64,000 nucleotides of DNA from Eledone cirrhosa (Eukaryota). Location: contig OZ024743.1 of the NCBI GenBank assembly GCA_964016885.1, positions 315,022,001 to 315,086,000 of the forward strand, in the 5' to 3' direction. This document shows positions 1-62,723 of the stretch, one piece after another. The first letter of the stretch is position 1. Each line of letters opens with the position of its first letter. The notes beneath the pieces are model-generated. The model did no database searches and was not told the origin of the DNA. It saw nothing but the letters and a program-made list of their open reading frames with translations. A program made the position numbers and the translations under genes.

Positions 1-1474
1 CATGAGACTCTGTGAAGGCATTTATCCAAAAATTTTGTATTTTGGCTTTTCCTGGGGATTTCCATTTGCTGGTTTTTCTTAGAGCCAAGCACAACTGTTC
101 AACTGTTATGTTTTCCCATATTTGTTCCTCAAGGTGAGCTGTATCTTTCATTTGTCTGTCTATCCATGGGCCATGTAGGTTATGAACTTTTTCTTCGGCC
201 CAGATCTTTTCCCAGAATTATTGCACTTCCTCCTTGGGTGGTATTGATTTAGCAGTTATTGTTGACTTACCCATTTTTCTGTAGAAGTTTCTTTGGTTGT
301 TTTTGAACATATTATTGTCCTTATAGAATCTAGATAGTTTTTCAAAGCGCCTTATACGAGCAGCTTTGGCCGACACTTTTTGCTTGATTATTTCTATCAG
401 CATGTCTATGTCACTTGTTGATTTTATACTATACTTTCTTTTCAATTTTCTAAGTTTAGTTTGTTTAACATGTTCACCTACTTTATAGTTTTTAAAATTT
501 CTATGTCAGATCGGAGAAGGTTTATTTGGCGATTGATGTTCTCTTGCCAAGTAGATTTCTTGTGGGAATTCCTTTGTTTTTTCATCTTCACTCCACATAA
601 ATGAGTGGTGACTTTAGCCGATGCATAATAGAGATGATTTAAATCAGTAATGTTTAGTTTGTTTGTGATGATAATGTTTTTGAGAATTATGTTAGTCTTG
701 TGTATTATCTTTTGGTTCTGTTTGGAGTTCTGGATCTTAGGGAGGGTGTGTGTGTGGGGGGGGGGTCTCGTTGCCCCATATCAGATTCTTTCATTTTCAT
801 CCATTCGATCATAATTTCATCATTCAAGTTGGCAAGTTCATTCTCATTCATTTCTTTATCATTTACGATCTCATTATTTTCATTTGGAGTTTAATCTTGA
901 GCATGCACTCCCTCCACTTTTTCGATCCTTTCTTTAATTTGTTCTGTTGCCAGTGATTCCGCCCCAACCCTGGGATTCGAAGTGTTACAATTTACCTCGT
1001 TTTCACTGACACATGTTTCATTTTCCCTTCGCTGACTTGGTGCTAATAGCTTGATCTGATCAATTTCTATATCAGTTAGTAACTTTCTTTTTACAATATT
1101 TATTCTTATATTGGCTAGTTTGTTACTGTCAATATAGCCTCTGTTTTCGGGATGTTTCTTTTTCCAGTTGATATATGTCTGTTCTGTATTCGATATATTT
1201 GATGGGTAGTACATGGCAGTGTAGAAAGCCTCAAGGACTTCTTTATTATCTTCCCTTGACCATTTTTCTCTCTTTTTCTTTGGATTTCTTGGTGGTGAGC
1301 ATGGAGGGCCAACAGTAGGAGTATTCCGGTTATGGGAGGTCTCCAGCTCCGAAGTGATGGGAAGGTTTGAACCATTAGCTGATTTTTCGACCCCAGTCTG
1401 GTTCCTCTCTGAGGGACGCGGCCCTTTTTTACCCGGGTGACGGCCGATCGGTATGAGATTTTATCATTAGACAT
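1..1474 (-). pseudogene. 5' part of a decayed R4/Dong-like non-LTR retrotransposon ORF, running off the left edge
   Basis: Frameshifted pieces: N-terminal 'KWSREDNKEVLEAFYTAMYYP...KLANIRINIVKRKLLTDIEID', 'IKQKVSAKAARIRRFEK...NNMFKNNQRNFY', 'WKSPGKAKIQNFWI'. Homologous to the element at 3193-6565 but a different family. Confidence 0.8.
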
Positions 1475-1720
1475 TTACTTTATTTTGTCGCGTTTTATCC
1501 TTATCCGCCAAGGGGTAATCATTTCGTGTTACCACTTCTAGAACGAGTATCAACCAAGACTAGAGGGGTCGTTCTCCGCTAGAGACACGGCTATTCCCCG
1601 CCATCCCGGTATTTCTTGATCACGGGGTTTTCTTTTTTGTTGTTGTTTTTAAATTGTTATTATCATGAGTGGTTCCTTAATGTGAGCATTGCGTGGCTTA
1701 AGAATGAAATTATCAATAAC

Positions 1721-1775
1721 AATAATTGTCTCCACTCCAGGCACAAGCCCAGCAATCACCCAGTGCATTACAATA
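1721..1775 (-). mobile_element. 3' fragment of tRNA-derived SINE (same family as 37971-38165)
   Basis: aattgtctccactccaggcacaagcccagcaatcacccagtgcattac resembles 48292-48340 and 50893-50942. Confidence 0.55.
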
Positions 1776-1920
1776 ATATAACATACTTTTTGCTGAAGTT
1801 GCCTGTTATTGTTGTTGGCTATGTCGGTGGTGGTGCTGGGGCTTTTTATATTGTTGGTGAGGAAGGGGGGAGCCAGTAGTGCCATAGTTGTTGACGTTTG
1901 GCCAGTGGCCAGGTCACTAA

Positions 1921-2634
1921 GTCAATCTATTTATATCTTTTGCTAGCCTCTCCCTTGTCTAGTGATACCACACCTTCCTCTTTCTTAAGTTAACAGGGGA
2001 ATAGTGGTGGTAGCAATGAAGGAATGGTGGCGGCGGTGATGGGGTAGTGGTAGCAATGATGGATGGAGTGGTGGCGGTGGTGGCGTTGTCGTTACTGAGT
2101 TTTGTTGAGTGGACTAGTTTTTTTATATGTAGTATCTATGCGTTTGTGTCGCCTATGTTTAATATGTGTGTTGAGATATTCCCGTAAAATTGGAATTAAA
2201 CATTTTGTTAAAACTTGAGACAATAATAATAGTAATTATTATTATGATGCTGGGATTGGTGGTGGTGGTGGTGAAATTGCCGTTATCTGGCTGTTATATT
2301 TAGTGTACACAGCGGGGTGATGGTGTAGGCGGTGTATCAAGTTTCTGGTGTTGGTAAAATTGCTGTTATTTGGCTGTTCTATATAGTGTAGACAGAGGGA
2401 GTTTTCTTCCATTTATAACCATTTTCTTTTTTGAATATAAAATATATAATACAAAATTGAATATTTGAGCGATATAACAATATATTATGGATCCCAAAAT
2501 TTATGAGACTTGATTCGGTGGTTTATGCATTTGTACTAAGAACTGTTATTTCACAATTGATTTAAATATGTTAAAAATCAAAAACTTACAGAAGCGATTT
2601 CATGACCTTCTACAACCTTGTGCGTCTTCTTCCC

Positions 2635-2640
<6 letters not shown>
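1921..2640. repeat. Non-coding block X, copy 1 (diverged paralog of 6990-7645)
   Basis: Shared strings e.g. ggtggtggtgaaattgccgttatctggctgtt, tggctgttctatatagtgtagacagag, cgtcttcttcccttatt; both copies are followed by (TTA)n. Confidence 0.85.
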
Positions 2641-2666
<26 letters not shown>

Positions 2667-2669
2667 GTT

Positions 2670-3072
2670 TTTATTTTCTTTCATTATTGTTTCTGAGATA
2701 TGTGCCGAGTGTCTTCTCGACATCTAGGGCAAATAAATTCAGTGTGCATTGGTAAGACAGTAAATACAGCACATTGAATGGGCCTTCTCTGAGTATGTGT
2801 CTGTAAATTAAAGGTGGAAAACTGGGAGAGGGCACTTGCCCTGGTGGTCAGGGCCACTGTGGTCTTTTAATGGGCTTTCTCCACAAATGTCCCTTGGAAG
2901 TCTCCCCCCTATTGGGGAATTTTTCTTTGTTATTTTATTTCAACCTCTGTTTTTTTACACGCAGAAATGCCCATTTGTACCGTCCTGTGTTGTCCTGTAC
3001 TGTCCTTAATGTCTACTTTATGTGAACCCTTGTGGTTAATAAAGAAAACATTATAATTAAAAAAAAAAAAAG
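2670..3072 (+). mobile_element. 3' end of an L1/Tx1-like LINE with AATAAA and poly(A)
   Basis: AATAAA near 3038 then a poly(A) run to ~3071; degenerate coding end 'KFSVHW*DSKYSTLNGPSLSMCL*'; shares tgtctacttta and aataaagaaa.cattat with ~52400-52520. Confidence 0.45.
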
Positions 3073-6000
3073 TATTATTATTATTATTATTATTATTGTT
3101 ATTATTATTATTGTTATTCCTTGAATCTCAGTCATTGATGTTGGTTAACTGGAAAGTCCGTTGGAATGAATATCAAGCCACTACCTGCAGCCTCAGATAT
3201 TCAGGACGTATCGGAGGGTTCTTGCTGTTCCCAGCAAGCATGCCTTTTGAAGCGTTCCAAAAAGCGTGAAGGGGCCGATTTTCTTTAACCATCCCAGTGC
3301 GCCTATGACAATCGGGATCACTTTGACTTCATGGCAGTTCCAAATCCTTTTCACCTCCCACTTTAGGTCCTAGTATCGGTTAATTTTCTCCCTCTCCTTC
3401 TCTTGCACTCTCGTGTCGAAAGGGCAGGCCACATCCACAATCAGACACGATCTTTTTTCTTTGTCCACAACCACCAGGTCAGGTCTATTGTGTTCCAGTT
3501 TTTTGTCCGTCTGTATCCTAAAATCCCACAGCACCTTCACCTGATTGTTCTCCATCACCGCCTCTGGCCTATGCTCATACCATTTCTCAGAATGTGGTAA
3601 ATTGTTTACTTTGCATAGGTGCCAGTGGATCACCCTGCCCATCACGTCGTGTCTCCAGCCCTTATAGTGGGTCTAGGCTAGGTGTTTACACTCGGACACA
3701 ATGTGAGCCACAGTCTCCTCTCTCTCTCTCCACAGATCCTGCACAGTGAGCTAGCCTCCTCCTTGTAAATATGGTGCTTCAACCACTTCGTCTTGAGGGC
3801 CTGCTCCTGCGCAGCCATTAGCATTCCTTCTGTAGCCTTTTTGAGGTCTCCTCTTCTCAACCAGTTCCATGTCTGTGGATCTCTAAATTCAGTTTTCTCA
3901 AAGAAGGTACTATGAAGGGATTTTCCCTTAAGGCCGCTCTTCCTCCTTGATGTTATTTCCTCCTTGGACATCCCCTGGCCTACTGTCCCCTCCTTCAGTA
4001 CAGTTCTGAGCATTGGCTCCTTACTATAGGTCACGTATTTGTATAGGTTGTTTTTCTCCATCTGAACACAGTCCTCTATGCTGATAAGACCTCTTCCACC
4101 CTCAGATCACCTTAGGTAGAGTCTATCGACATCACTCCTCTTGTGGAACATGTTGTAGATAGTCAGTAGCTTCCTAGTCTTCCTATCCATTTCTTTTTGT
4201 TCAGCAACATTCCATCTCAGAATTCCCGCACTGTACCTAATAATAGACACAGCTCGGGAATTTACTGCGCTTATGGCATTTCTGCTGTTCAGATGTGACT
4301 TCAATACGCTCCTTACTCTCCGAATGTATTCAGTTCTTAACAATTCCTTCATTTTTTTGTTCTTTATGCCATCAGCCTCCAGAACACCCAAATACTTGTA
4401 TCCTTCCTCAGAGTCAATTTCCTTTATCATCTCACCTGTTGGTATCTGGATCCCGTTACTTCTGCTCAACCAACCCCTCCTCATCACAATGACTCCACAT
4501 TTACTAATACCAAACTGCATACATATATCACTGCTGAAAATACGGACAGTGTCAACAAGCACATCCAACTCCTTCTCACTTTTCCCGAAGAGCTTAAGAT
4601 CGTCCATGAAGGGGAGGTGATTGATGGTAAGCTCTCCCTTTCCCAACTTGTATCCTGCTCTCACTTTTCGCAGCATAATGGTCAATGGCATCAGGGCAAG
4701 GACAAACAACAGAGGGACAGGCTATCTCCCTGGAAGATACCTCTCTTGATCTTCACGCTTCCCAAGGATACTCCAGTTGATGTCAACTCTGTCTCCCAGG
4801 ACCCCATACTCCTGCCCAGCAACTGTCTGATGTTATCTGCCACCCTGAAGATCTCCAGGCTTTTGGTGATCCAAGAATGAGCCACCATGTCAAATGCCTT
4901 TCTGTAGTCTATCCATCCCATGGCAAGATCAGTGTGTCTCCTCCTGCAATTCCCCATTACCATCTTATCAATAAGTAACTGGTCCTTTGTACCACGTGAC
5001 TTCTTTCGGCATCCTTTCTGTTCGTCCGGTAACAAGTTGTTTGTGTGGAGGTGATGGTAGATTTCCTCAGACACAATGCTTGTCAACAGTTTCCACATTA
5101 CGGACAGACATGTGATAGGTCTATAGTTGGTAACATCATTACCCTTGATTCGGTCTTTCATTATCAGAACTGTGGTACCTTTTGTCAACCACTCTGGCAC
5201 CTCACCCGACACTAAGCAGTCATTGAACATGGCCGTCAGCTTCGGGTGGAGGGATGTTAAATTTTTAATCCAATACCCCTGCACACCATATGGGCCTGGT
5301 GATTTCCAGTTGGTTAGTTTTTTGGCCTGCCCCTTAAGAGTTTCAACTGTGATACTCAAATCAGTTTGTTGGTGTGCCTGCTCACCGATCTCCCTCTGTA
5401 CTGTCTCAATCCACCCTGCCTGGACATTATGTCTAACATCCTGCTCCCATATTCCTCTCCAGAATGTTTTAGTTTGCTCCGCCTCAGGGATCAAGTCGTT
5501 GCCTCTTTCTTTCCGCTCAAGCTGTCCAAACAGCATCTTCTGGTTGTTGTCGAACATGCGGTTCTGTTTATACTGACTGACTCTGTTCTCGTATCGCCTG
5601 ATTTTTGCACTCTTTGCTACAATGCGTTGCTTCAGTTCCTCTATGATAATATTTAGCTTTTTCCTCCTAGTTTTGTACTTTATTTCCAGTCTATTTTTAG
5701 TGCCTATGTTTTTTAGTGTCCCATTCAGTAGTGACTCAAGCTTTCCTATGTCATTTCTCATTTCCCCGATTTGACCACTCAGTCGTTTCTTTCACCACGG
5801 CTCTGCTCTTTCTTGTCTGTTGTTTCCTCTCGCTTTTATACCAAGTAGTTTCCTCACCGTAGTTGCTGTTGCTTTGAGGATATTGTTGCACTGGTGAAGG
5901 CTCCTCGCCTCAAGGTATGGGATGACTTTGTTTACCTTAGCTGTTGTTTCTTTTAACTTTTTCCTGTCCACAAATCTTAGGTTCATAGGTCTCCCACTAT

Positions 6001-6700
6001 CATTGTTCAATTCATCTACCACTAAATTTAGGATGTCAACCGAATCTTGTCCTAGCCCGTCAGTATTCATCTCCTCAGTGGCCGTATCTCTGTTCCAGGT
6101 ATTATTTATCTCAGTATTCAGATCATTGTCTGCTTCGGGTGGTTCCTCCGTTCTCAGGACCTCTTCACCTTAATTTCCCACTGGCTCGCTTGTCTGGCAT
6201 ACTACACCCGCCATCTCCAAGCCATTCTCTCTGCTCAGTTCCTCCAGTTCCAGCTCGCTTATCCACCCATTAGTTCTTATTACCCGAGCCTGCCCGGCCA
6301 ATTTTTGTTTATCTAATTTAAATAGACCAATCTCGTTCCAGATGTTATGCATCCGTCTCCTGTAGCCCCTCTCCTTGGGGTTACTTTTCAGGTAACATTG
6401 CATAACAGTTCTATTCAATTCTTTCGTCCAGTTGGTTCTGGCCCCTTTCCTTCTTCTTCTTCTTCCTCCAACATCAGCAGTATTTGGTTGACAGTCAGGT
6501 TCCTGCTACTGAGCCAGGGGGCACTTGTTGGGTGAGAGTCTGTCACATGACGTTCTAGTCTCCATTTCACCGTTATTCGAACTGTTTATGTTCGATATTT
6601 AAACACTCTTATCGAGGATTGGCGAATGTATGGTTACATAGCCATCTGTGGATTCGCCGTTCCACTTGGCCCTTGTGTGGCATTATCACCACGCTGTATA
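3073..6700 (-). mobile_element. Near full-length decayed R4/Dong-clade non-LTR retrotransposon (RT, CCHC knuckle, restriction-like endonuclease) with (TAA)n 3' tail
   Basis: One ORF broken by frameshifts and stops from ~6565 to the stop at 3193; (TTA)n at 3073-3118 on + strand. Dong elements are known to target TAA repeats. Confidence 0.9.
3193..6565 (-). pseudogene. Disrupted RT-RLE polyprotein of the R4/Dong element
   Basis: RT motifs NYRPITCL, DYRKAFDMV, GIFQGDSLS, FMDDLKL, YKYLG; CRICG zinc knuckle; RHD; RPDLVVVD...DVACP...KEREKINRY; C-terminus LQKACLLGTARTLRYVLNI*. Confidence 0.9.
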
Positions 6701-8226: not shown

Positions 8227-10060
<1,834 letters not shown>

Positions 10061-10413
10061 GGAAAGTCATATTTAAATTGTTGGGTTAACAACGAGTAAA
10101 TATTTATAACTGATATAAAAGCACTCAACAAGTATTTGGAGTATATTTATGATATTAAATAAATGGAAACTATATTTATAAAACCATATTTATTTCATTA
10201 TATATATTTCAGGGATAACATATTAACAATATGGTATGCCTTCTTCAGACAAAATACAATATAAACAGTCTTATAAATAAATAGATACGACATACCTTTC
10301 AATCGACTTGCATTTGGGAAGTTGATTTGGCAGTCCCATATTGTTATCCCTGAAATATATATAATGAAATAAATATGGTTTTATAAATATAGTTTCCATT
10401 TATTTAATATCAT
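10061..10413. mobile_element. Hairpin (inverted pLTR) insertion of Hydra-type PLE family 1
   Basis: Minus arm 10061-~10295 includes a ~90-nt tail; plus arm ~10342-10413; both match the 3' end of the element at ~14470-14618. Confidence 0.85.
10191..10256 (-). ncRNA. Type I hammerhead ribozyme (family 1 pLTR)
   Basis: TATTTTGT-CTGAAGA-AGGCATACCATATT GTT AATATGTTATCCCT-GAA-ATATATAT-A-ATGAAATA. Confidence 0.8.
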
Positions 10414-10609: not shown

Positions 10610-10654
10610 GTATGTATACGCACATACATATATGTATACAGACGTACAGTAGCA

Positions 10655-10692
<38 letters not shown>

Positions 10693-10738
10693 CAGGTACA
10701 CCGCTAAACTGATACGTACATATATATATGTGTACCTG

Positions 10739-10815
<77 letters not shown>

Positions 10816-10870
10816 CTTTACATGTATCTTGCTCCAATACTGTTGAGCGCTTTATATTATAACTGGAAAA

Positions 10871-13087
10871 ATGGAATTCTTTAAGATTACTTCCTCTCTA
10901 AAAGACATACCTCTACCTAGAAACAAAGACTTTATAAAACAATTAATAGATAAATCTGACTCTTTTATAAGGAGAATCAGGTGGCGTGCATTCCACTTTG
11001 ATAAATCTAATGCAGATGAAAATGTCTCGGACTTAAACAAAGTTTTCAAATCTAAAAGAAATCCACCCCCTAACAAACTTTTATCTGACTTTGAAAACGA
11101 TATAATTTCTATCATACAAGGGGTCAAATTCAAGAGAAACTTCAAAGGCCAGGAATATCTGAAAGGCATTAAGGATAACATTGAGAGCTTAGAGAAAACT
11201 GAGAAGATCTTGGTGAAATCTGACAAGACCAACAACCTCTATGGAGTGCGGAAAGACATGTATAATGGCCTCATACTGAAAGAGCTGAGGAAAAAGTACA
11301 AGGTAGCAGATAAGGCCGAACTTGAGAAAATGAATGTCGAAGCATCTTGTATAATGCACGAGTTGGAAATTGAGAACATAACACAACCTTTCGTGCCCAG
11401 GAAACCGAAGATCAATATGAAGGACCACAAGAGGAATTTTGAAAATGACCTGCCAGTTAGATTGATCGCACCTTCAAAATAATCGGACCTGGGCAAATTA
11501 AGCAAAAACATTCTTGACAGGGTGATACAGCAAATTAAGAACTTGGATTGTGTATCTAACCTGAGCTTGTGGAAGGGAACTGGAGAGGTTGTTGAGTGGT
11601 TTAGGCAAATTAAATATAACAATAATAATAGGTTTATTCAACTTGATATAGCTAACTATTATTCTTCTATTACCCCTAGTCTACTAAATAAGGCACTAAA
11701 TTACGCATTCAAACATACGGACCTAACTAGCAAAGAAATGCATATTATATTATCGGCTAGGAAAACTTTGATAGAATTTAATGACAAATTATGGACCAGA
11801 GCAGATAGAGATAGCAATTTTGACATAACTATGGGATCTTCCGACTCAGCTCAGGTAACTGACCTTGTGGGCTTATTTTTAATCAATTCGCTACATAGGA
11901 AAATACCTGGTACTACCGTAGGTTTATATAGGGATGACATGCTTTTACTTATTAATAATAATAACCCTGAACTAAATAGAAAATGTAAACAAATTACAAA
12001 ATTTTTTAATTACTTTAACCTTAAAATAGAAATTGAGAACAACCATAGAATAGTCAATTTCCTAGATATAACATTAAATCTCAACACATGTCTCCACCAT
12101 CCTTTTCACAAGTTGAATGAAAACTTAAACTATGTCAACTTTAACTCTAACCACCCCAGATCTGTCAAAAACACTATAGTAAACTCAGTTCAAAAACGTA
12201 TCTCTAGGATCTCGTCGAATAGAAAGATTTTCGACGAAAAGGCCCAATACTATAATGAAGCATTAGCTAGGGCAGGATATGCTGATAAGATTGTGTACAT
12301 AGATAATGATAGACAAACTAAACAAAGTAACAACTTTTTTAATTACGGCAACAACATTAACAACTATAATAGAAAGCATTACAATAATTCCAAAGGCCAA
12401 AAAAGAAATAGAACTAGGAACATAATTTGGTTTGCCCCCCCTTTCTCACTAAACATTAAAACCCACATCGCTAAATTATTTTTCAAAGCTCTTGATAATC
12501 GCTTCCCTAGAACACATAGGTATCACTCAATTTTCAATAGGCATACAATTAAATTAACCTACTCATCCACCAAAAATTTAGCACAAAATATTAATAGAAT
12601 AAATAATAGGAACTTAAAACCTAGTGATAATAGCATAAATAATATACAAGTTAACAAATGTAACTGTAGAGATAGATCTAAATGTCCGTTAAATAACAAC
12701 TGCTTAGTTAAAAATATAATATACGATTGTATTGTTAATACTGACTCTAATTCTTTTAACTACGTCGGTTCCACATCGACGGAATTTAAACTTCGCTTTA
12801 ATAACCACAAGAATTCTTTCACAGATCCAAGTAAAAAATCTTCAACGGCACTATCAGGCGTACTCTGGCAACTTAAGCTAGATAGCGTTAGATATTCGAC
12901 GGCTTGGAATATAGTCTCAAGAGGGATTCCTTTTAATTCATCCTCTGAGACATGTGACCTCTGCGCAGAGGAGATATTCTTTATACTAAAATCTAAAAAT
13001 TCCCTTAACCTACGGACACATTTATTCAGTTGTTGCAAACATAGATTAAACTCAACGTTTAAATATAAATTTAAATTTAAAATGTAG
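10871..13087 (+). pseudogene. PLE reverse transcriptase with C-terminal GIY-YIG endonuclease (~738 codons, one in-frame TAA at 11480-11482)
   Basis: ORFs 10871-11482 and 11522-13087 are in frame (RLIAPSK*SDLGKLSK). RT motifs LDIANYYSSI, MGSSDS, YRDD, NFLDI, SNHP; CxCx5C linker (CNCRDRSKC); IIY...YVGST...RFNNH, CDLCAEE, LN. Confidence 0.9.
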
Positions 13088-14511
13088 TATATTTAGTTTG
13101 ATTTATATTTATATGGGAAACTAGCCGATAAATTTTTGATTCCTAAATTTTTGATTCCTTCTTTTTATTCTTTTTTATTGTTTATTTTTATTTTATTTTT
13201 ATTTAAACATTCCTCATGAAAAATTAAGCTACCCTAAAAGCTGATGCTCCAAATGTTTTGAATAAACCTTACACTAGATAAACTTCTATATTAAATATAA
13301 GAACATATGTAGACCAATTTGGACATCATAAACTTTTTGAAATGATCTTTGCTAGATGTGATTTGATAGATAATTTTTGGCTTTGTCTTGTAATGAACTT
13401 GGCAATATATTGTCAATTAACTTTGAAGGGTTGATCTTTGTGGTTTATTTTTATTTTTATTTTTTATTACTGTAGTATTTTATAATTATTTTTTATTTTT
13501 TATTTTTATTTTTATTTTTATTTTTAATATCTTTAATATGTAAATTTTTAATACGTAATATTTTTTAATACGTAATATTTTTAATATGTAATATTTTTAT
13601 TATGTAATATTCTTTCGTAATATTTTTTTATTTTTTTAGTTTTCTATTTTATTATTACTTATTTTTACTTATTATTATTATTGTTATCTTTTTATTTTTT
13701 TAGTTTTGTTTCTGATATATATTTTTATTAGTATATTGAAATCTGCTCTCTATTTCTGCTTGATAGATAATCTTGTAGAGTAAAGACAGGAATAATAATA
13801 CACATATATGTATGCTCAAATTTTTATACCACATTGAGAATGTTTTCCGTGAACTTAGAGTTTGCAGAGTGAATCATGTGGATTCGCATGGATGTTTGTA
13901 GCTGTCACATAAACATATGAATTTTTTTAAAACTAAACATAAGATAATTAATTTTCACACACTATGGATACTTGTCTCATTCAGGAATACTGATATTTAC
14001 AATATAGTGTAAGTTTTATAAATACTAATACATTAAAACATAGGGTTTTTACGCCTCGAATATATCTGGCTATTTTTTAATTTTTTTCTCTCGCTATTTT
14101 TTTCTCTCTCTATATTTTTTCTCTCTCTATATATCTCCCTTACATTAATACTTGAGCTAAATAAATAAATAAATAAATATATGTATCATTGATACATTTA
14201 CTCAAAATGACCTCCCACTACCTAATTTTCTATATATATATGTATCTATCTCTATTTCCTCTCTCTATATATATATCTCTTTCTGTTTCTTTACATGAAG
14301 TTCTTCGCTTTATCTATCTTTCCATCTCTCTATTTTGTTCCATGCATTTCTTCTTTTTCTTCCTTTTCTTCGTTTTCTGTCTTTCTTTCTTTTTTCTCTC
14401 TTTCTTTCTCTCTGTGTAAAATTTTTTCACTGCCAGCTTAAACCTCTTCAAATGGAAGTCGGTGTTATAACGGTATGTCGAATCTATTTATCTATAAAAC
14501 TGTTTATATTG

Positions 14512-14577
14512 TATTTTGTCTGAGGAAGGCATAGCATATTGTTAATATGATATCCCCGAAATATATATAATGAAATA
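14512..14577 (+). ncRNA. Type I hammerhead ribozyme in the 3' pLTR
   Basis: TATTTTGT-CTGAGGA-AGGCATAGCATATT GTT AATATGATATCCCC-GAA-ATATATAT-A-ATGAAATA; A-C mismatch at the base of stem II in this copy. Confidence 0.75.
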
Positions 14578-14614
14578 AATATGGTTTTATAAATATAGTT
14601 TCCATTTATTTAAT

Positions 14615-14662
<48 letters not shown>

Positions 14663-15076
14663 TGCTACTGTACGTCTGTATACATATATGTATGTACGTA
14701 TACATACATACTTACATTTAAGTAAGTGCCGTACTAAGAATGAGTAATGAATTTCGTTTTCATTTTATTACAACTCATCGTTTTCGGTGCGCCTGCCCGA
14801 TTTAACTCACTCGATATGCAAATTAGGCTGCTCAGCCGTTAATTTTCATAAGGAAAATATATACTTTCGAACGTTCAACTATCTGGCAGATGGGTATACG
14901 GTGCTGATGAAACTAGTACATCGTTCATGTGTCAGTATTGAACAAAAAGGTGACGTGTTTGCCTTAACACCGTGCGGCATGAATTCAGGCTGTTCAGTTT
15001 GTTTACAAACGAACAAACCGGGCGCTATAATAAGCCTCCGCTAAATTGATACGTACATATATATATGTGTACCTGC

Positions 15077-15153
<77 letters not shown>

Positions 15154-15268
15154 TGCTACTGTACGTCTGTATACATATATGTATGTACGTATACATACAT
15201 ACTTACATTTAAGTAAGTGCCGTAGTAAGAGTGAGAAATGAAATTTCGTTTTCATTTTATTACAACTC

Positions 15269-16500: not shown

Positions 16501-16763
16501 TTTATACCATAAACGTGGTTCTGTCTTTGCGCGTAATTGTTTTTCACCGCTCCTATTAATGACGTATTATTCGTTTTTTCCCGTTCTTTGCCAGCGAACG
16601 TTTCCACGAACCAAAGTATCGTCTTCCTCTCTTACTCGGTTGCAACGTTTTTTGAAATATCCAGTTCTGCGTTTACAGATTGACATTGTTAGATTCAGAA
16701 GATCCCGTTAAGGGTGAAAGCAACGATTCTTTGCTTAAACTTTAATCTGTTATTTTAATAAAG

Positions 16764-24310: not shown

Positions 24311-24764
24311 ATATATATATATTGTTATGCTTTGGGAGGGTCATGTTGCTAATAAGAAATACACGCACCAATCGCTTTCACTCCAATTTATTATAAATTA
24401 AATTCATAAATTTAAGAATTAATAAATTTCCGGTTGGTTGGTTGGTTCCACAACCGGACGGTTGTTCATATATTGTCAAAGTTATTTCGTCACACATTCT
24501 GTGACCTCTTCAGTGACTGGGGATTCTTTTCTTTGTTTTTGTGCCTCTCCTTTGTTCTGTCCTACGCCATTTTATTTCTGTGTGTGTTGTGTGCTTAGTT
24601 TGCGCATGTGTTACATCCGGGTGTATGTGTGTGTTTATATTTGTTTATTTATTTGTTTATTTATATGTTACTGGTTGGTTGTTAGTTCTATGTGTGTGTG
24701 TGTGATTTCATTTTGTCCTTAATTGTAAGTTGTGATGTTGCTATTCCATTCATGTTTTCTATTT

Positions 24765-26440
24765 CGCAGAATCAGCGAAAGTAACCGTTATAGGGACCTA
24801 ACAAACTGTATAATAGGCAGTATGGATGTTGTGTCCCTATATCCATCCATTGACGTGGATTTTTCTGTGGAGAAATGCGTAGAAATGATCAGTGAGAGCA
24901 ATGGTGTATTCCGTCGGATTGATACCAGTGAGCTGGGACTCCTACTTAAACCTACCTATAGTAATGATTGTCTATATACATATGACCTTAGCAAGACCAG
25001 CAAGAGGCAGACCACTTACCATTACCTCAATGGCCAAGAAATCCCACACAGATAGATGGGACGGGTGGACCAGAGCCATACAAACCCGCGAAAACTACAT
25101 GCGGTGGGAGCCAGTATAAAATTAACCCTGAAGGAACATATGTTCAAATTTCTATGGAAAACATATGCCCAAGAAGGGGGAGCAGCCATTAGTGTTAGCA
25201 TTGCAGGTGACATAGCTAACCTATTCATGGTATGGTGGGACAACAGACTTAAACTTAAAATTAAAGAACAACTAGAAGACCCCTTAACCCTGATAATGTA
25301 CTCCCGCTACGTTGATGATATAAACATCGTAGTTAAAGCACCCCCACTGGAGAACAGTCAGGAATTAGAGAAAAACACAATGGAAAGCATCCAGCAAATA
25401 GCTAATTCCATCCACCAGAGAATAGAGTTACTATAGACTACCCAAGCAAACACCCCAACCATCGATTACCTGTACTAGACACAGAGCTCTGGTTAGAAAC
25501 CATTAATAACAAAAAACAAATCCTCCATTCCCATTATGCCAAACCCATGACTTCCAAATATCTGATCCACCGAAACTCAGCTGTTTCGGACCACACCAAA
25601 ATCAACATACTGATTGACGATTTAGTAGGGGTGATGAGAAACGTGTCCCGCATGTGCAACCCCAAAGAACTAGAGAGACGCATACAACACTTCATACACC
25701 GTATGCAGTTCTCTGGTTACAATCAGAGAGATACAATCAGAGTATATAGAGGAGCCAGAACCAAATGGGAAAAAATGGTAAATAATGATACAAATGGGGC
25801 CTGCCCCATGTATAGGGGCAAATTTTGGAATAGAATAGAAAGAACTAGGAATAAGATTAATAGAATAAACTCATGATATGATAGCAATAAATACCAGAGT
25901 GTAATGTTCATCAATACAACCCCTAGAGGTGAATTAGCTTACAAATTTAGAAGGGCCCTAGATAAACATAAACTCAATATTAAGATAGTAGAAAGACCAG
26001 GTACCTCCATAAAAACACTTATTAGCAATACATACCCTTACCAAAGACCTCCCTGTATAGATAATAAATGTATAATCTGTAAACTAAGCCCCCATATTAA
26101 CTGTAAAACTAAAAATGTAGTATATAGCATAAGATGTACTGAAGGACAATGTAGATATAAGAATATAGTGTACATAGGTGAGACAGATCGTAGTATATGA
26201 GAACGGATAAATGAACACTGGCGAGAGCTTCAAGATAGAAAAGAATCATCTGTACTCCACCAACATGCTTAAATAGAACATGAGGGTACATTAGAGAACA
26301 TAGAAATAAAAATAGAATCTACACACAGAAAAGACGCAATGTCTAGACAAATCACAGAGGCAATAAACATAAATGAACTCCAATTAAAATTAAATAGAAA
26401 ACATGAATGGAATAGCAACATCACAACTTACAATTAAGGA
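24765..26440 (+). pseudogene. Disrupted PLE RT + GIY-YIG coding sequence
   Basis: SMDVVSLYPSI, YSRYVDDI, LPVLD, KPM, NVVYSIRC...VYIGETDRS.*ERINEH, RQITEAINI...LNRKHEW across frameshifts and stops. Confidence 0.85.
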
Positions 26441-26634
26441 CAAAATGAAAACACACACTCATAGAACAAACAATCAACCAGTAACATGTAAATAAACAAA
26501 TAATGAAACAAATATAAACACACACAGACACCCGGATGTAACACATGCGCAAACTAAGCACACGACACACACAAAAACAAGATGACGTAGGACAGAACAA
26601 AGGAGAGGCACAAAAACAAAGAAAAGAATCCCCA

Positions 26635-26677
26635 GTCACTGAAGAGGTCACAGAATGTGTGACGAAAGAACTTTGAC
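26635..26677 (+). ncRNA. Minimal type I hammerhead
   Basis: GTCA-CTGAAGA-G-GTCACA GAATG TGTGAC-GAA-AGAACT-T-TGAC; inverted copy at 24475-24517. Confidence 0.7.
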
Positions 26678-26887
26678 AATATATGAACAACTGTCCGGTT
26701 GTGGAACCAACCAACCGGAAATTTATAAATTCTTAAATTTATAAATTTAATTTATAATAAATTAGAGTGAAAGCGGTTGGTGCGTGTATTTCTTATTGGC
26801 AACATGACCCTCCCAAAGCATAACAATATCGCTTTCAACACACGTTTTCAGATAAAGAATCTCGCTAAACAAATTCAGAAACGAAAT

Positions 26888-26939
<52 letters not shown>

Positions 26940-26940: not shown

Positions 26941-29030
<2,090 letters not shown>

Positions 29031-29033
<3 letters not shown>

Positions 29034-29401
29034 GATATTAACAAATGGAAACTATATTTATAAAACCATATTTATTTCATTATACATATTTCAAGGACAC
29101 CAAGTTAAATTATGCTGTGCTTTCATCAGATAAAATATAATATAGATCAGTTTTATAAATAAATATTGACATACCCTTAAAAAATGCAACCATGATCTAT
29201 ATTATATTTTATCTGATGAAAGCACACCATAATTTAACTTGATGTCCTTGAAATATGTATAATCAAATAAATATGGTTTTATAAATATAATTTCCATTTG
29301 TTAATATCGTATTTTTACTCGAAATATTTGTTGAGTGCTTTATATCAGTTATAAAAATATTTGCTTGTTGTATCCCAACAATTTAAATAGAACTTTTACA
29401 T
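29031..29401. mobile_element. Hairpin insertion of a family 1-related Hydra pLTR
   Basis: Arms ~29031-29149 and ~29193-29311, tail 29312-29401; hammerheads at 29073-29137 (-) and 29205-29269 (+). Confidence 0.85.
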
Positions 29402-29407: not shown

Positions 29408-30443
29408 ATTAGAAAGATCGAGTATCGAAAAATCGGCGCACGAGTTCACGATAAACAAAATTCGAAATGAGCGGCAGAGGGCTCAATAATTCAGATGAAT
29501 CAGAGCTATAACTATCGTTAAAATACCGTCACATATAGAACAAGTCTACAATCAACCATACGATAAAAAATCGATAAAGGAAGATTCGGGACAAACAGAT
29601 AAAAAATATCAATAAAACAATACATCAATAATTTAAATGAATGTAAAATCATACCCGGACCCACTAGAAAGGTGTTAAATCTAGCTTCATGGGTTTCTGT
29701 AAATCCTTAGACTGTACTCTATCAGCTCACATATAAATATAAAAGCCTACTAGACTAAGCGGAACGGAGTTTACTTTCTCAACGAGCTTTTTTCCTAGCG
29801 GAAAAGGGGCTAACTACCAGTGAAAAACGCACATGGCATTAGACAAGGGAGATAACCCCTATATCCGCGAAAACAATTCGAGGGAATGTGGAAATACACA
29901 TATCGAATAAGAGTGCTCAATAGACATGTTAAAATAAAACAAAAGCTATTCATCACTCAATAGAATCGACAAAAAATGAGCAATAAAATTAACTGGTGGA
30001 TAGCTATATCCAGAGCTAAAAATATTAGAAAGATCGAGTATCGAAAAATCGGCGCACGAGTTCACGATAAACAAAATTCGAAATGAGCGGCAGAGGGCTC
30101 AATAATTCAGATGAATCAGAGCTATAACTATCGTTAAAATACCGTCACATATAGAACAAGTCTACAATCAACCATACGATAAAAAATCGATAAAGGAAGA
30201 TTCGGGACAAACAGATAAAAAATATCAATAAAACAATACATCAATAATTTAAATGAATGTAAAATCATACCCGGACCCACTAGAAAGGTGTTAAATCTAG
30301 CTTCATGGGTTTCTGTAAATCCTTAGACTGTACTCTATCAGCTCACATATAAATATAAAAGCCTACTAGAGTAAGCGGAACGGAGTTTACTTTCTCAACG
30401 AGCTTTTTTCCTAGCGGAAAAGGGGCTAACTACCAGTGAAAAA
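29408..30443 (-). repeat. Near-identical 616-bp tandem repeat (~1.7 copies) between (TA)n tracts
   Basis: attagaaagatcgagtatcg at 29408 and 30024; no ORF. Strand inferred from the PLE-type end motif. Confidence 0.9.
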
Positions 30444-30459: not shown

Positions 30460-30567
30460 TTTCGGTTCTGAAAAATATATATATATATATATTTCGGTTC
30501 TGAATTTGTTTAGCAAGATTCTTTATCTGAAATCGTGTGTTGAAACCCATATTGTTATACTTTGGTA
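30460..30567 (-). mobile_element. Tail fragment of the second-clade PLE with duplicated terminus
   Basis: Reverse complement resembles 26813-26887; terminal tttcggttctgaa occurs twice, separated by (TA)n. Confidence 0.8.
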
Positions 30568-36913: not shown

Positions 36914-37110
36914 TAGGAAACGGTATGACCCCGACGGCAGAGCTCAAGACGGCTATTTCTGGACTATTCCTAGTCCAGAAATAGCCGTAGAAACGGCTTG
37001 AGCTCTGTCGTCGGGGTCATACCGTTTCCTATTTCCCACTCTAGTTCTCTAAGTATTGAGTACTCTGGTGCGTTATGGTCCATCTGGTTCCTTACCACAT
37101 TTCCTTTGTT
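36914..37110. mobile_element. Short PLE-type hairpin with tail
   Basis: Arms 36914-36966 and 36971-37031, loop TTCC; tail with ACTC (37038)...GAGT (37058); in (TA)n. Confidence 0.7.
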
Positions 37111-37127: not shown

Positions 37128-37665
<538 letters not shown>

Positions 37666-39699: not shown

Positions 39700-39856
39700 T
39701 GCAGAAGTTATATTTAATTTGTTGGGATTCCAAAAAACTTAAAAGTGTATAACTGATATAGAGCACTCAACTGGTCCTGGAGTAAACTATATTTAAATTG
39801 TTGGCGTTCGAAGAAACTTAAAGATGTATAACCGATATAGAACACTCAACAGCATA

Positions 39857-39860
<4 letters not shown>
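39700..39860 (-). mobile_element. Tandem dimer of the ~80-bp family 1 tail module
   Basis: Units ~39710-39788 and ~39789-39852, homologous to 10061-10145, 29312-29401 and 61751-61840. Confidence 0.75.
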
Positions 39861-39898: not shown

Positions 39899-39907
<9 letters not shown>

Positions 39908-40694
39908 ATATTTGGGGAGGGTCATATTTGCGTAATATTGCCAGAATTAATAACAGAACACACTCACTGTTTGGTTGGTTTTCGCTTCTCGCTGTTTATA
40001 TATATATCTGCGATCTAACTTACTCGGTCCTCAATGTTGCCATTGACTGACCGGCGGTCAAAAATAATACAGATACAATATAGACAAACACATATATATA
40101 TATATAGTTTACATAATTTACATAAATCTTTCGTTGCACATCTGCAACATCGTCAGTGGTGTTATATTCATTGTTCCTCCTGTTGTGTTGTATGTCTACG
40201 CCATTTTTTTTTTGTATGTTAATGTACGCGTGTGTATGTGTGTGTATATATGTGTGTGTATGTGTGTGTGGGTGGACCAGTATTTTTTCCCCCTGGTAAA
40301 ATGGTGTACAAAAAAAAAAAAGAAAAAAAAAAAAAATGGCGTAGACATACAACACAACAGGAGGAACAATGAATATAACACCACTGACGATGTTGGAGAT
40401 GTGCAACGAAAGATTTATGTAAATTATGTAAACTATATATATATGTGTTTGTCTATATTGTATCTGTATTATTTTTGACCGCCGGTCAGTCAATGGCAAC
40501 ATTGAGGACCGAGTAAGTTAGATCGCAGATATATATATATAAAAGACAGCGAGAAGCGAAAACCAACCAAACAGTGAGTGTGTTCTGTTATTAATTCTGG
40601 CAATATTACGCAAATATGACCCTCCCCAAATATAACAATATCTGTTTCGACACACGATTTCATATAAAAACCTCGCAAAACTAATTCATCGCTG

Positions 40695-40695
<1 letters not shown>
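39899..40695. mobile_element. Hairpin of a second-clade PLE pLTR with tail
   Basis: Arms 39899-40213 and ~40320-40641, tail 40642-40695; hammerheads CTGACGA-T-GTTGCA GATG TGCAAC-GAA-AGATTT-A at 40120-40160 (-) and 40381-40420 (+); ends resemble 24319 and 26829. Confidence 0.85.
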
Positions 40696-40728
<33 letters not shown>

Positions 40729-42180
40729 TAAAATAACAGATTAAAGTTTAAGCAAAGAATCGCTGCTTTCACCCTTAACGGGATCTTCTGAAACTTACAA
40801 AGTCAATCTGTAAACGCAGAACTGGATATTTCAAAAAACGTTGCAACCGGAGGATGACAGGAAGACGATACTTTGGTTCGTGGTAACGTTCGCTGGCAAA
40901 GAACGGGAAAAAACGAATAATACGTCATTAATAGGAGCGGTGAAAAACAATTACGCGCAAAGACAAAACCACGTTTATGGTATAAAAGAGGTCGTAGACT
41001 AATGGTCTCTTAGGTGGTGCATTGAGACGTTCTCTGGCAATGAACGAAAATACGAAGATAATAAGTCATATGTGGAGCGTGGAGAACAATAGCACGCAAA
41101 GACAAAACCACGTAAATGGTATAGTAGAATCATAGACTAAAATTCTAACTAGGAGACCAAATGAATCTCCGCTACAGAGTTAAGAACAAAGTAAATAAAT
41201 ACAATACAGAAGTAATAGAAACAAATAAATACATACACGCAAACAGATACGTACATACACAAGCATACGCAAAACCTTACCATGGGTATACAAAACCACG
41301 CACATATAAATATGTGTGTGTGTGTATGCTCGTGTACAAATAAATAAATAATTATATAAACGTATATAAGTAAATAAATACGTATATAACAAGCGCACAC
41401 GCATACCTACATATAAATACACGAATGTTCGGAGACGTAAGTCAACTAAAACAAGAAGTACACATATACACACACCCACCATACGTACGAACCTGCGCAC
41501 TCACGCGGACGCACAACTCCCGTATATACATAGCCAAACCCTAAATACCAGAATATGTAAAAATTATACGCTATAACAGTCAAATATACGTACGAGAAGG
41601 TATACATACCTTCACAAAACATACATGTAATATATATTTACCTATGCAAATAAGTAAAGGAATAAACAAACATATACTTAGCTCCCACATCAAGACGTAA
41701 AATATCCACGTATAGATCGTGCTATCCGTTAGGGTATAACGTGGGGCTGTAATACAGGAAAGTTTTGTGCAATTTATGTTTACAAGCCGAAATTGCCTCA
41801 GATTTTTGTTTAAGATGTGGTCTGTAGCATAGAGTATTTCCAGTGACGTCATATTCCTTCTTAGAGGGTAACGAAAAGAATGGGTATGCATGTAAAGACG
41901 CTGCTTGAAACTATTGGCGGTTAACCCTATGTAAGCCCTACGGGACGTGGGTGTTACAACCTTACATTTGTAGACAATGTTACTAGAGAGGCATTTCCCG
42001 GATAGTCAGCCCGATTCCTACAATTAGAGTTGGTACTAACTACAGGGTTGCACGTGTTCCTACGGCTAGATAGTTTAGCTAAATTTGAAGCTGTGATGTT
42101 ATGTGCAAGGTTAGGAGTCGTAGAGTAAGAAATTTTAATAGTATTTCTATTAAAATTTTTAATATATTTATGTGTAGACC

Positions 42181-43224
42181 ATGACTAACTGCGGACCTCG
42201 TGCTTGCGACAGGTTCAGAAAAGATCTCACAGCCTTCTTTAAAGGCTTCAACCTCTCTATACAGGTTGAGGCCAATCTCTCGGTCGTTAATTACCTCGAC
42301 GTTACCCTCAATTTATTGAATGGGTTGTATTACCCGTATAGAAAGCCGAATGATACGCTTAATTACATAAGTAAGCATTCCAACCATCCTGCCAGCATAA
42401 CCAAGAACCTGGTAAGAAACATTTCGTTGAGGCTTTCCCGTCTTTCCACCAACGAGCGCATTTTCAACGACCATTCCACTTATTACAATGAAGCTCTTGC
42501 TCGAAGTGGATTTGTCGATAAGGTAGCATATACAGAGTACGAAAATAGACCTAGAAGAAATAGATCCCGTCGCATTTGTTGGTATAACCCACCATATAAT
42601 ATGGAGGTGGCCACACCATTAGCTAAGATCTTTCTTTCCCTTATTACGAAGCATTTTCCCCCTACACATAAATATAGTAAAATTTTTAATAGAAATACTA
42701 TTAAAATGTCTTACTCTACGACTCCTAACCTTGCACATAACATCACAGCTTCAAATTTAGCTAAACTATCTAGCCGTAGGAACACGTGCAACCCTGTAGT
42801 TAGTACCAACTGTAATTGTAGGAATCGGGCTGACTGCCCCCTATCCGGGAAATGCCTCTCTAGTAACATTGTCTATAAATGTAAGGTTGTAACACCCACG
42901 TCCCGTAGGGCCTACATAGGGTTAATCGCCAATAGTTTCAAGCAGCGTCTTTACATGCATACCCATTCTTTTCGTTACCCTCTAAGAATGAATATGACGT
43001 CACTTTCAGTTCATATCTGGAGTCTAAAAGACAACCACACCCAATATAAGTTACACTGGGAGATCCTAGCTAGGGCTAGATCGTATAACGGAAATAAAAG
43101 ACCATGTGATCTCTGCGCCGCAGAGGTCCTGGAAATACTCTACGCTACAGACCACATCTTAAACAAAAAATCTGAGGCAATTTCGGCTTGTAAACATAAA
43201 TTGCACAAAACTTTCCTGTATTAG
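42181..43224 (+). pseudogene. C-terminal part of PLE RT + GIY-YIG (open frame, 5'-truncated after the catalytic DD)
   Basis: NYLDVTLNL, SNHP, WYNPPY, CNCRNRADCPL, IVY...YIG...RLYMH, CDLCAAE; collinear with the 11522-13087 protein. Confidence 0.9.
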
Positions 43225-44180: not shown

Positions 44181-44231
44181 AGTTTCAGAAGATCCCGTTA
44201 AGGGTGAAAGCAGCGATTCTTTGCTTAAACT
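44181..44231 (+). ncRNA. Hammerhead variant with CAGAAGA (U4A) core and full stem III
   Basis: AGTTT-CAGAAGA-T CCC GTTAA GGG T-GAA-AGCAG CGATTCT TTGCT-T-AAACT; also at 16691-16741 (+) and 40744-40796 (-). Confidence 0.6.
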
Positions 44232-44360
44232 TTAATCTGTTATTTTAATAAATATATGCTCTACGGTTCTTATATATTTGATATATATATTTTCCTTATC
44301 GAGCCCTCTTTGGATTTTAGTCTCCAATTTTATTATTATTACTATATATATATATATATA

Positions 44361-46395
<2,035 letters not shown>

Positions 46396-47445: not shown

Positions 47446-47526
<81 letters not shown>

Positions 47527-55831: not shown

Positions 55832-55833
55832 AT

Positions 55834-56106
<273 letters not shown>

Positions 56107-61750: not shown

Positions 61751-62174
61751 AAGCAAAAGGGATATTTAATTTGTTGGTAATTCAACAAATATATATGTTT
61801 ATAACTGATTCGAAGCACTCGACAGTTTTTGGTGGAGTAAAATATCAATGATATTAAATAAATGGAAACTATATTTATAAAACCATATTTATTCTATTAT
61901 ATATATTTCAAAGTACCAAAACTTTGGTACGCCCTCATCAGAATAAAATACAAAGTTTGTTTTATAAATATTGACATATCCAGGAAGAAGATCTTAACGG
62001 TTCAGGTTTTGCCTGAACTTGAACCGTTAAGATCTTCCTTGATATGTCAATATTTATAACTCAAACTTTGTATTTTATCTGATGAGAACGTTCCAAAGTT
62101 GTGGTACCATTGAGATATAATATAATAGAATAAATATGATTTTATAAATATAGTTTCCATTTATTTAATATCAT
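61751..62174. mobile_element. Hairpin of a family 1-related Hydra pLTR
   Basis: Arms ~61847-62003 and ~62019-62174, tail 61751-61846; hammerheads at 61890-61950 (-) and 62071-62132 (+, GAAA mutated to GAGA). Confidence 0.85.
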
Positions 62175-62723
62175 TTATATATATATATATATATATTTAT
62201 ATGTGCATGATGTATACATACGTACATATATATGTATATATATATATATGTAAATATATATATATATATATATATATGTACGTATGAATACAACATGCAC
62301 ATATATACGTAGAGATATGTATTTGTATTTCATACAAAAAATATATATAATTTTCCATTTCTTATTTTTCAGGTGAGTGGGAACAATGTGAAAAATACGT
62401 GAAAAGGAGGTAATGTAATTTTACAATTACCTCCCTCATAGCGATACTATTATATATTATGTATAGATTTATATATTATTTTACCTTCCTCTTTATATGT
62501 TTTCTGATACATTGTCTTTTGTTTTCACATAAGTATTTCTCTTACAGTTTCGGATATATGAGAGTAGAACGATGATGTGATACATATTTTATGAAGCTGT
62601 GAAGCTATAGCAGTGAAGTAATATACATAGACTTAAAAACGAAGGCCCTGGCCCTCGACTTGTTGCCATTGTTTCACAACTATAATATACATGTTTATGT
62701 ATATATATGTATATATATATATA

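What the first reader, a model, noticed from the sequence alone, without database searches (positions are those of the whole stretch)
10811..14618. Near-intact Hydra-type PLE looks like an almost unit-length copy of a circular or tandem RNA
Seen: the 3' end is the short end, ~50 nt downstream of the predicted hammerhead cleavage site (~14569), and the 5' end lies in the last ~13 nt of the tail that follows the short end in other copies. The copy is therefore circularly permuted and lacks only ~80 nt of module 1. Inference: a linear RNA cut at the hammerhead would give only ~50 nt of template from this start, so the template was either an uncleaved tandem transcript or a ligated circle. Hammerhead-generated circles are established for retrozymes, but to my knowledge not for autonomous PLEs.
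Basis: partly seen in the sequence, partly recalled or inferred. Interest (0 to 1): 0.7.

Follow-up and report, generated by a model that had tools for sequence, protein, structure and literature searches.

The report
Solo Hydra retroelement, twin priming hairpins
This is a nearly complete copy of a Penelope-like (Hydra-clade) jumping gene whose sequence runs unbroken across its predicted self-cutting ribozyme, as in almost all related copies examined, so it does not by itself show a circular RNA; its two ends sit beside a duplicated RNA hairpin, conserved in related elements, that likely tells the reverse transcriptase where to start.

Summary
10815-14618 is a Hydra-clade PLE in a (TA)n run, with one in-frame stop. 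It ends 49 nt past a predicted hammerhead cut (14569), starts in the last ~9-14 nt of the tail, and lacks 82 nt (2%) of a unit.

The inference is only partly supported. Crossing the cut is generic (42 of 43 end-copies), and hammerhead circles for PLEs were proposed in 2014. I found a bulged hairpin, conserved with covariation, present twice between hammerhead and ATG in related elements; 3' ends map from 7 nt before to 1 nt into hairpin 1 (short) or hairpin 2 (long). If the hairpin sets the start, a short-ended copy needs only hairpin 1 downstream, so a linear uncut transcript of a tail-ended master suffices. Long-ended full copies (L005, L007) are the ones needing a tandem, circle or template jump.

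Best reading: internal priming on uncut linear RNA (0.55); circle 0.3. The element is a new member of a known clade; the twin hairpin was not in Rfam or in the papers searched and makes the circle question testable.

The parts
10745..10814 (.). Left (TA)n target run, 70 nt, internal to an older non-autonomous repeat (X)
   Evidence: the same run is uninterrupted (69 nt) in the second X repeat at 15082-15150
10815..10823 (+). 5' junction: last nucleotides of the tail, just before the long-end site
   Evidence: matches tail ends of B and E, weakly G, not H-left
10831..10853 (+). Hairpin 2 (GCUC stem, short upper stem, UU bulge, GAGC, GCUUU), 40 nt before ATG; predicted RT docking element for the long-end start
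   Evidence: 23.2 bits, E 0.0087 with model R1, which was not trained on it
10871..13087 (+). Single ORF, 738 codons: RT plus C-terminal GIY-YIG-type nuclease with Hydra-clade motifs
   Evidence: 194 homologues at E<=1e-10 among 7999 scored, best 43% identity
11480..11482 (+). In-frame TAA in a one-residue insertion relative to homologues, inside an AAT-AAT repeat; likely inactivates this copy
13088..14519 (+). Long low-complexity 3' UTR, 1432 nt to the hammerhead core; makes the element longer than typical Hydra PLEs
14506..14582 (+). Predicted type I hammerhead; core 14520-14561, palindromic stem III (dimer type), cut after 14569
   Evidence: not detected by Rfam
14570..14618 (+). 49 nt between predicted cut and the short 3' end
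14619..14659 (.). Right (TA)n target run, 41 nt
10059..10334 (-). Comparator copy B: long-ended arm with hammerhead and hairpin 1 (10118-10142)
10338..10411 (+). Comparator copy C: short-ended arm inverted to B
29026..29182 (-). Comparator copy D: short-ended arm
29198..29401 (+). Comparator copy E: long-ended arm with hairpin 1 (29317-29341)
39700..39860 (-). Comparator fragment G: two tandem tail modules ending at the long end, no hammerhead
61752..62175 (.). Comparator inverted pair H: left arm long-ended with hairpin 1 (61812-61838), right arm short-ended
14660..15268 (+). Older host repeat X, downstream part (upstream part 10610-10744); a partial tandem into whose TA run the element inserted

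Best explanation
This is a nearly unit-length solo copy of a Hydra-clade Penelope-like retrotransposon in a (TA)n run, likely made by target-primed reverse transcription that started internally, a few nucleotides before hairpin 1, on an RNA that was likely linear and uncut at its predicted hammerhead. Shown: the anatomy (hammerhead-like motif, short end, hairpin 1, long end, hairpin 2, ATG) and the position of 3' ends just before the hairpins. Inferred steps: (a) the RT-nuclease binds a hairpin and uses the nicked (TA)n 3' end as primer on the U/A-rich bases just 5' of it, so each hairpin defines one end type; (b) a transcript from a tail-ended or tandem master supplies hairpin 1, and a lone hammerhead with a palindromic stem III has no partner to cut with; (c) synthesis ran back through the UTR, ORF and hairpin 2 and was joined to the left (TA)n at a TA microhomology 9-14 nt above the long-end site, at or near the RNA 5' end or where protein sat on hairpin 2; (d) a later 3-nt slippage stopped the ORF.
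For: The junction order is physically present in L002, L006, L007 and L012. In 20 of 20 same-family comparisons the 3' end maps from 7 nt before to 1 nt into the hairpin start (15 short, 5 long; some matches are lengthened by TA mimicry). Hairpin: 19 of 20 half-motifs found by position after hammerheads have the closing stem, against 14 of 92 in shuffled DNA; upper stem averages 2.84 bp against 0.61, 0 of 2000 shuffles; 49 two-sided changes on a model-fitted alignment. Tail-ended masters exist (L005, L007). Stem III is unfavourable as a monomer (+4.7 kcal/mol) and favourable as a duplex (-3.2). Internal initiation at two sites, a need for RNA downstream of the start, and uncleaved RNA as the main substrate were shown for a Poseidon element (PMC11167929). 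Naiad elements show pLTRs and tails, and Chlamys elements pLTRs, mostly without canonical hammerheads (PMC8557442). Flanks are intact on both sides.
Against: No RNA data and no master of this subfamily were available; no transcription start is mapped. In D. virilis Penelope the start lies inside the upstream pLTR, which could put two hammerheads on one transcript. Linear copying alone cannot regenerate long-ended full copies (L005, L007) if hairpin 2 is required, so tandems, circles or jumps must exist somewhere in the lineage. One arm (L011 7307) begins at or 1 nt past the predicted cut, which suggests cleavage can happen in vivo. 5' ends lean towards the unit boundary (5 of 18, p 0.028; 4 of 17 without this copy, p 0.08), which a circle also predicts. 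The hairpin could act as DNA (nuclease site) rather than RNA.
Confidence: 0.55

Rival explanations
1. Circle: two hammerheads cut out a monomer, it is ligated, RT starts before hairpin 1, goes once round and stops near hairpin 2, where a second subunit or the other target end would be held, 82 nt short of a full turn.
For: Full-ORF copies often begin at or near a start site: this copy, L009 (about 20 nt above the long end) and L005 (at hairpin 1). Long-ended ORF-bearing copies need hairpin 2 downstream (L003, L005, L007, window 42178-44345). The cut site is crossed without an indel in 6 of 7 family copies (H-right has 1 extra nt in stem III). Retrozyme circles are abundant, and retrozymes are related to pLTRs. 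Proposed in 2014.
Against: Not needed for a short-ended copy. Hammerhead mutants did not affect insertion in vitro and no reads ended at the cut. Hammerhead-less Naiads have the same architecture. A head-to-tail junction exists in DNA (L006; L012 is a circularly assembled contig), so tandem arrays can supply the junction. 5' end clustering is weak without this copy.
Confidence: 0.3
2. End-to-end template jump: RT copies 49 nt to the 5' end of a hammerhead-cut linear monomer, then jumps to the 3' end of the same or another monomer.
For: Template jumping by R2-type RTs is established (own knowledge). One arm starts at the cut (L011 7307) and one copy has a 4-nt duplication at the cut (L011 5679).
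Against: Jumps usually leave junction errors; this copy and nearly all others are seamless at the cut. The 4-nt duplication is 1 of 4 full copies of that family and could be slippage.
Confidence: 0.07
3. The insertion was originally a normal pLTR-ORF-pLTR and later lost its upstream part by deletion into the TA run, or was trimmed by the element's nuclease near the hairpin.
For: TA microhomology at the junction. Tails at either end have been ascribed to nuclease resolution, and the Penelope nuclease needs the tail to cut (as cited).
Against: The host repeat is intact on both sides and only 3-7% diverged from its twin, so time was short. L009 shows the same type of 5' end in another host.
Confidence: 0.05
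4. The leader is this subfamily's own module 1, so the copy is a full unit with nothing missing.
For: The leader hairpin and its downstream bases resemble module 1.
Against: The 16 nt before the leader hairpin score -3 to +2 against short-site contexts, including the element's own 3' end, while the first 9 nt match tail ends. All 5 related loci with both positions visible have two hairpins before ATG (L002, L005, L006, L007, L012).
Confidence: 0.03

Closest known systems
Hydra clade of C-terminal EN+ Penelope-like elements (Craig et al. 2021, PMC8557442), e.g. Hydra-1_Obim, Hydra-1_Ajap, Hydra-1_Crog, Hydra-2_Amil
   Same: Single RT plus GIY-YIG ORF, RWK-like, DKT, CxCx5C, CxxC and CxH motifs, no CCHH cysteine pair, (TA)n target, hammerhead near the 3' end. 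[quoted passage not shown]
   Different: 3.8 kb rather than under 3 kb because of a 1.4-kb UTR; hairpin spacing about 91 nt (inferred) against 62-68 nt; one stop codon. The twin hairpin is visible by eye in several published consensi, but I found no mention in the sections read and 'hairpin' and 'stem-loop' have 0 hits in the supplement.
Poseidon element PAc of Anolis (Frangieh et al. 2024, PMC11167929)
   Same: Two adjacent internal RT start sites that define the tail; RNA downstream of the start is required; AT-rich target; hammerhead upstream of the starts.
   Different: Different clade. PAc starts lie 111-118 nt inside the ORF in an AC-rich stem-loop; here both sites lie before the ATG and each precedes one copy of the same hairpin.
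D. virilis Penelope solo copies (Schostak et al. 2008, PMC2377424)
   Same: Copies without pLTR, and solo ORFs flanked by the 34-bp tail (the L005 type), are described.
   Different: 34-37 nt tail; transcription start and intron mapped in the pLTR; none is mapped for Hydra elements in what I read.
Metazoan non-LTR retrozymes (PMC7229834; bioRxiv 10.64898/2026.07.22.740005)
   Same: Type I hammerhead, tandem organisation, related to pLTRs.
   Different: Small, non-coding, with circles shown by experiment; this element is coding, 3.8 kb, solo, and no circle is shown.

Membership tests
Hydra-clade PLE | Single ORF with RT and C-terminal GIY-YIG nuclease | tested here: met
   YRDD at 353 and IIY...YVG at 616-633; GIY-YIG-like pattern in 19 of 19 aligned proteins. 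By motif only: Pfam gave 0 families for this protein, PDB sequence search 0, and no structure model was obtained.
Hydra-clade PLE | RWK motif and DKG changed to DKT | tested here: met
   RWR at 37 (variant of RWK); KSDKT near residue 119
Hydra-clade PLE | CxCx5C linker, CxxC and CxH at the C terminus, no CCHH cysteine pair between GIY and YIG | tested here: met
   CxCx5C at 597, CxxC at 695, CxH at 722; only one cysteine between IIY and YVG
Hydra-clade PLE | Insertion into (TA)n | tested here: met
Hydra-clade PLE | Hammerhead motif near the 3' end | tested here: met
   Core and three stems with covariation; prediction only, no Rfam hit
Hydra-clade PLE | Generally shorter than 3 kb | tested here: not met
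   3804 nt, due to a 1432-nt UTR; a tendency in the paper, not a diagnostic
Hydra-clade PLE | Placement in the clade by RT phylogeny | not tested
   No tree with reference sequences was built. Indirect: 42% identity to L017, whose hammerhead and flanks match Hydra-2_Amil by eye; 34% to a Hydra vulgaris protein.
Canonical pLTR-ORF-pLTR Penelope insertion | Upstream direct or inverted pLTR | tested here: not met
   No upstream repeat joined to the element; B and C lie 400 nt away beyond host repeat X and are 10% diverged
Hammerhead circle-derived retroelement (retrozyme-like) | Two hammerheads per transcript releasing a monomer | tested here: inconclusive
   This copy has one; related loci L002 and L007 have two; the master of this subfamily was not seen
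Hammerhead circle-derived retroelement (retrozyme-like) | Covalently closed RNA detected | not testable with these tools
   needs RNA data
Hammerhead circle-derived retroelement (retrozyme-like) | Small and non-coding | tested here: not met
   738-codon ORF

The most novel reading that the evidence does not exclude
Autonomous Hydra PLEs replicate through hammerhead-made monomer RNA circles. A dimeric RT-nuclease docks on two copies of one conserved hairpin, primes one target strand before each hairpin (giving the short and long arms of inverted insertions), and regenerates the pLTR and tail by going round the circle; solo copies like this one and L005 are single turns stopped at the other docking site.
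Probability: 0.3. Interest if true: 0.75.

Novelty: new member of a known kind. Interest (0 to 1): 0.42.

Why it matters
How PLEs regenerate their pLTR and tail is an acknowledged open question (PMC2377424), and the role of their hammerhead is unclear. This copy does not settle it. But the duplicated hairpin gives a defined candidate cis element for both RT start sites in a clade I found no biochemistry for, and it shows which copies are informative: long-ended full-length ones cannot come from a tail-ended linear master if hairpin 2 is required. That turns the circle idea into specific tests: hairpin deletion and relocation in a priming assay, and a census of end types in one genome. If circles are confirmed, a protein-coding eukaryotic retrotransposon would be shown to use a viroid-like intermediate.

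Tried and rejected
Rfam found no hammerhead or hairpin family: whole window gave 171 weak matches, the 150 listed being almost all microRNA models on TA repeats; the 196-nt end gave 2 chance matches; 14 of the 18 loci gave 0 at gathering score. Single-sequence folding gave no significant z-score for the hammerhead or the hairpins. Pfam and PDB sequence searches were blank for the protein. A structure prediction was submitted but had not finished, so no fold search was run. MAFFT failed to align the 5' stem of the hairpin; the model was built from 9 well-aligned sequences. The 17-nt motif search gave 4 matches against 2.75 expected, so it is not evidence. In one search the 4 comparisons of this family's long ends with the leader were confounded by the TA run in 3 of 4. 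In one search I dropped 20 of 63 rows (18 TA-repeat artefacts, 2 from another family) before counting. Names of the closest proteins could not be looked up. The Terminon paper PMC5850863 was not held. No complex prediction was run. Rejected: leader as module 1, and B or C as this element's pLTR. Unchecked: viral and metagenome contig collections, the host genome outside the window, any RNA data, and bioRxiv supplements.

Full report
WHAT IS THERE. Between pure (TA)n runs at 10745-10814 and 14619-14659 lies a 3804-nt element. It has one ORF, 10871-13087, broken by a single TAA at 11480-11482 that sits in a one-residue insertion relative to homologues. The protein has 194 homologues at E<=1e-10 among 7999 scored, best 43% identity. 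It carries RWR, DKT, YRDD, CxCx5C, a GIY-YIG-like pair without the CCHH cysteines, CxxC and CxH. These match the Hydra-clade description in PMC8557442 (section 11). Pfam and PDB sequence searches were blank. The element sits in the internal TA run of an older repeat X, whose second repeat shows the empty 69-nt run; the X repeats differ by 3 of 45 and 3 of 117 aligned bases. The insertion is therefore clean and probably young. The TA-rich host resembles a cephalopod genome; that is recalled, not tested.

A hammerhead core lies at 14520-14561 with a predicted cut after 14569, 49 nt from the end. On 6 family copies the fold has 90.4% of cells paired against 37-55% for slid controls, with 4 two-sided changes in stem II; shuffle tests were mixed. 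Rfam misses it. Stem III is an 8-nt palindrome, unfavourable as a monomer and favourable as a duplex, the dimer type described in PMC4209133 (passages). Three inverted pairs of the same family (B/C, D/E, H) each have one arm stopping where this element stops and one running about 82-90 nt further. The element's first 9 nt match the tail end of B and E, G weakly, and H-left not at all; 0 of 9142 sampled window 9-mers did as well against B, E and G. The missing piece is 82 nt, 2.1% of a unit, inferred from subfamilies 10-16% diverged.

RELATED LOCI. A scan of genome contigs returned 18 loci, which I take to be host-animal DNA binned into symbiont genomes. In L002, L006, L007 and L012 the junction is physically present: hammerhead, short end, hairpin 1, long end, hairpin 2, ATG. 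The hairpin is a 4-bp closing stem (GCUC/GAGC in 19, ACUC/GAGU in 4, GCAC/GUGC in 2 of 25), a variable upper stem, a 2-nt bulge and a conserved 3' RCU. Of 44 hammerhead-like sites, 20 half-motifs lay within 200 nt downstream and 19 had the closing stem, against 14 of 92 in shuffled DNA. The motif pattern was designed after seeing these sequences, and several copies share a family. The upper stem, which the pattern does not constrain, averages 2.84 bp against 0.61 (0 of 2000 shuffles). A model trained on 9 other copies finds this element's leader hairpin at E 0.0087, and the fitted alignment has 49 two-sided changes (it leans to the structure). In 20 of 20 same-family comparisons the 3' end maps from 7 nt before to 1 nt into hairpin 1 (15 short ends) or hairpin 2 (5 long ends). 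By eye, the same motif is in the published consensi Hydra-1_Ajap (twice), Hydra-2_Ajap, Hydra-1_Crog and Hydra-2_Amil (supplement parts 52-53). In the window, 9 of 9 inverted pairs I labelled by eye have one short and one long arm; a tenth (47.2 kb) has an extension without a detected hairpin, and several other pairs were not examined.

MECHANISM. For a Poseidon element, RT starts internally at two sites that define the tail, needs RNA downstream of the start, and mainly uses uncleaved RNA (PMC11167929, parts 1-2 of 4). I infer that each Hydra hairpin docks the RT-nuclease and sets a start a few bases 5' of it, on U/A-rich bases that pair with the nicked (TA)n. This copy was then primed before hairpin 1, copied across the hammerhead, UTR, ORF and hairpin 2, and joined to the left (TA)n 9-14 nt above the long-end site.

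CIRCLE OR NOT. The template was continuous at the cut, but so it is for 42 of 43 end-copies (after dropping 18 TA artefacts and 2 rows of another family; queries came from hammerhead-bearing copies). A short-ended copy needs only hairpin 1 downstream, and tail-ended masters such as L005 and L007 provide that on a linear RNA. So this copy is the least informative type. Against a required circle: hammerhead mutants still insert in vitro and no reads end at the cut, and Naiads have the same architecture without canonical hammerheads. For a circle or true tandem somewhere in the lineage: long-ended full copies need hairpin 2 downstream, which tail-ended masters lack. Among 5 full-ORF copies with a visible 5' junction, 3 begin in the hairpin region (this one; L009, about 20 nt above the long end; L005, at hairpin 1) and 2 are ordinary pLTR-ORF-pLTR (L002, L007). 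Across 18 approximate 5' ends, 5 fall in a 200-nt zone around the ATG (p 0.028; 4 of 17 and p 0.08 without this copy; zone chosen after seeing the data). A transcription start, TA microhomology or a circle would each give that. One arm, L011 7307, starts at or 1 nt past the predicted cut and runs to the short end, which is what a cut linear RNA predicts; it is a single event.

PRIOR ART. Hammerhead-made circles as PLE templates were proposed in PMC4209133. Solo copies without pLTR and tail-flanked solo ORFs are described, and pLTR regeneration is called unexplained, in PMC2377424 (passages). [quoted passage not shown] I also read passages of PMC3846280, PMC7229834, PMC6431247, PMC5680766, PMC8969392, and part 1 of 5 plus passages of bioRxiv 10.64898/2026.07.22.740005 (9, 79). 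Of PMC8557442 I read the abstract, sections 3 and 11, passages, supplement parts 1, 2, 52, 53 and one supplement search (15-18, 26, 29, 30, 34, 89). Nine searches showed no demonstration of circles for autonomous PLEs and no description of the Hydra twin hairpin; most subscription papers are not in the library.

VERDICT. Observation confirmed; interpretation partly supported. The element is a new, slightly long member of the Hydra clade. Uncut linear template 0.55, circle 0.3, other routes 0.15. Interest 0.42, carried mainly by the twin hairpin and the test it defines.

Noticed in passing
window 40725-44345: Second Hydra-type family as an inverted pair; the right arm carries the 3' half of the ORF and ends long. 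Its predicted hammerhead has CAGAAGA in place of CUGANGA in all 3 copies that include the core (also 16677-16762).
   Followed up: partly
window 29408-30443 (-): Young partial tandem with a 616-bp period, 99.8% identical over 420 bp, no ORF of 100 aa, with Hydra-type hairpins at 29476-29506 and 30092-30122; the long end is followed by a stretched hairpin 2 in the upstream repeat. Looks like a non-autonomous Hydra derivative; no clear hammerhead.
   Followed up: partly
window 10610-10744, 14660-15268 and 8337-8731: Repeat X: about 490-bp non-autonomous PLE-like unit with an internal (TA)n. The copy at 8486-8510 (-) has a hammerhead core; the copy near 14905 lacks its stem II.
   Followed up: partly
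window 24323-26888 and 39904-40695: PLEs of another clade with hammerheads 160-230 nt from the end and a shared ~60-nt tail (also 30490-30565); no Hydra hairpin detected in their tails.
   Followed up: partly
window 36914-37110, 37129-37548, 55833-55976 (-), 47211-47446: Further short PLE end fragments; the first three carry the Hydra hairpin in the long arm.
   Followed up: partly
L011 7257-7358: Tiny inverted insertion whose short arm begins at or 1 nt past the predicted hammerhead cut and whose long arm begins inside hairpin 1.
   Followed up: yes
L011 5676-5684: 4-nt tandem duplication right at the predicted cut in 1 of 4 full copies of that family; slippage or a template-jump scar.
   Followed up: partly
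L001-L018: Animal PLE DNA lies inside GTDB bacterial genomes (8 of 18 loci from one MAG), which points to host contamination of those bins.
   Followed up: no
window 900-6500 (-): Fragmented non-LTR (LINE-like) retrotransposon ORFs.
   Followed up: no
window 44464-46276: 1.8-kb near-perfect palindrome (98.8%).
   Followed up: no
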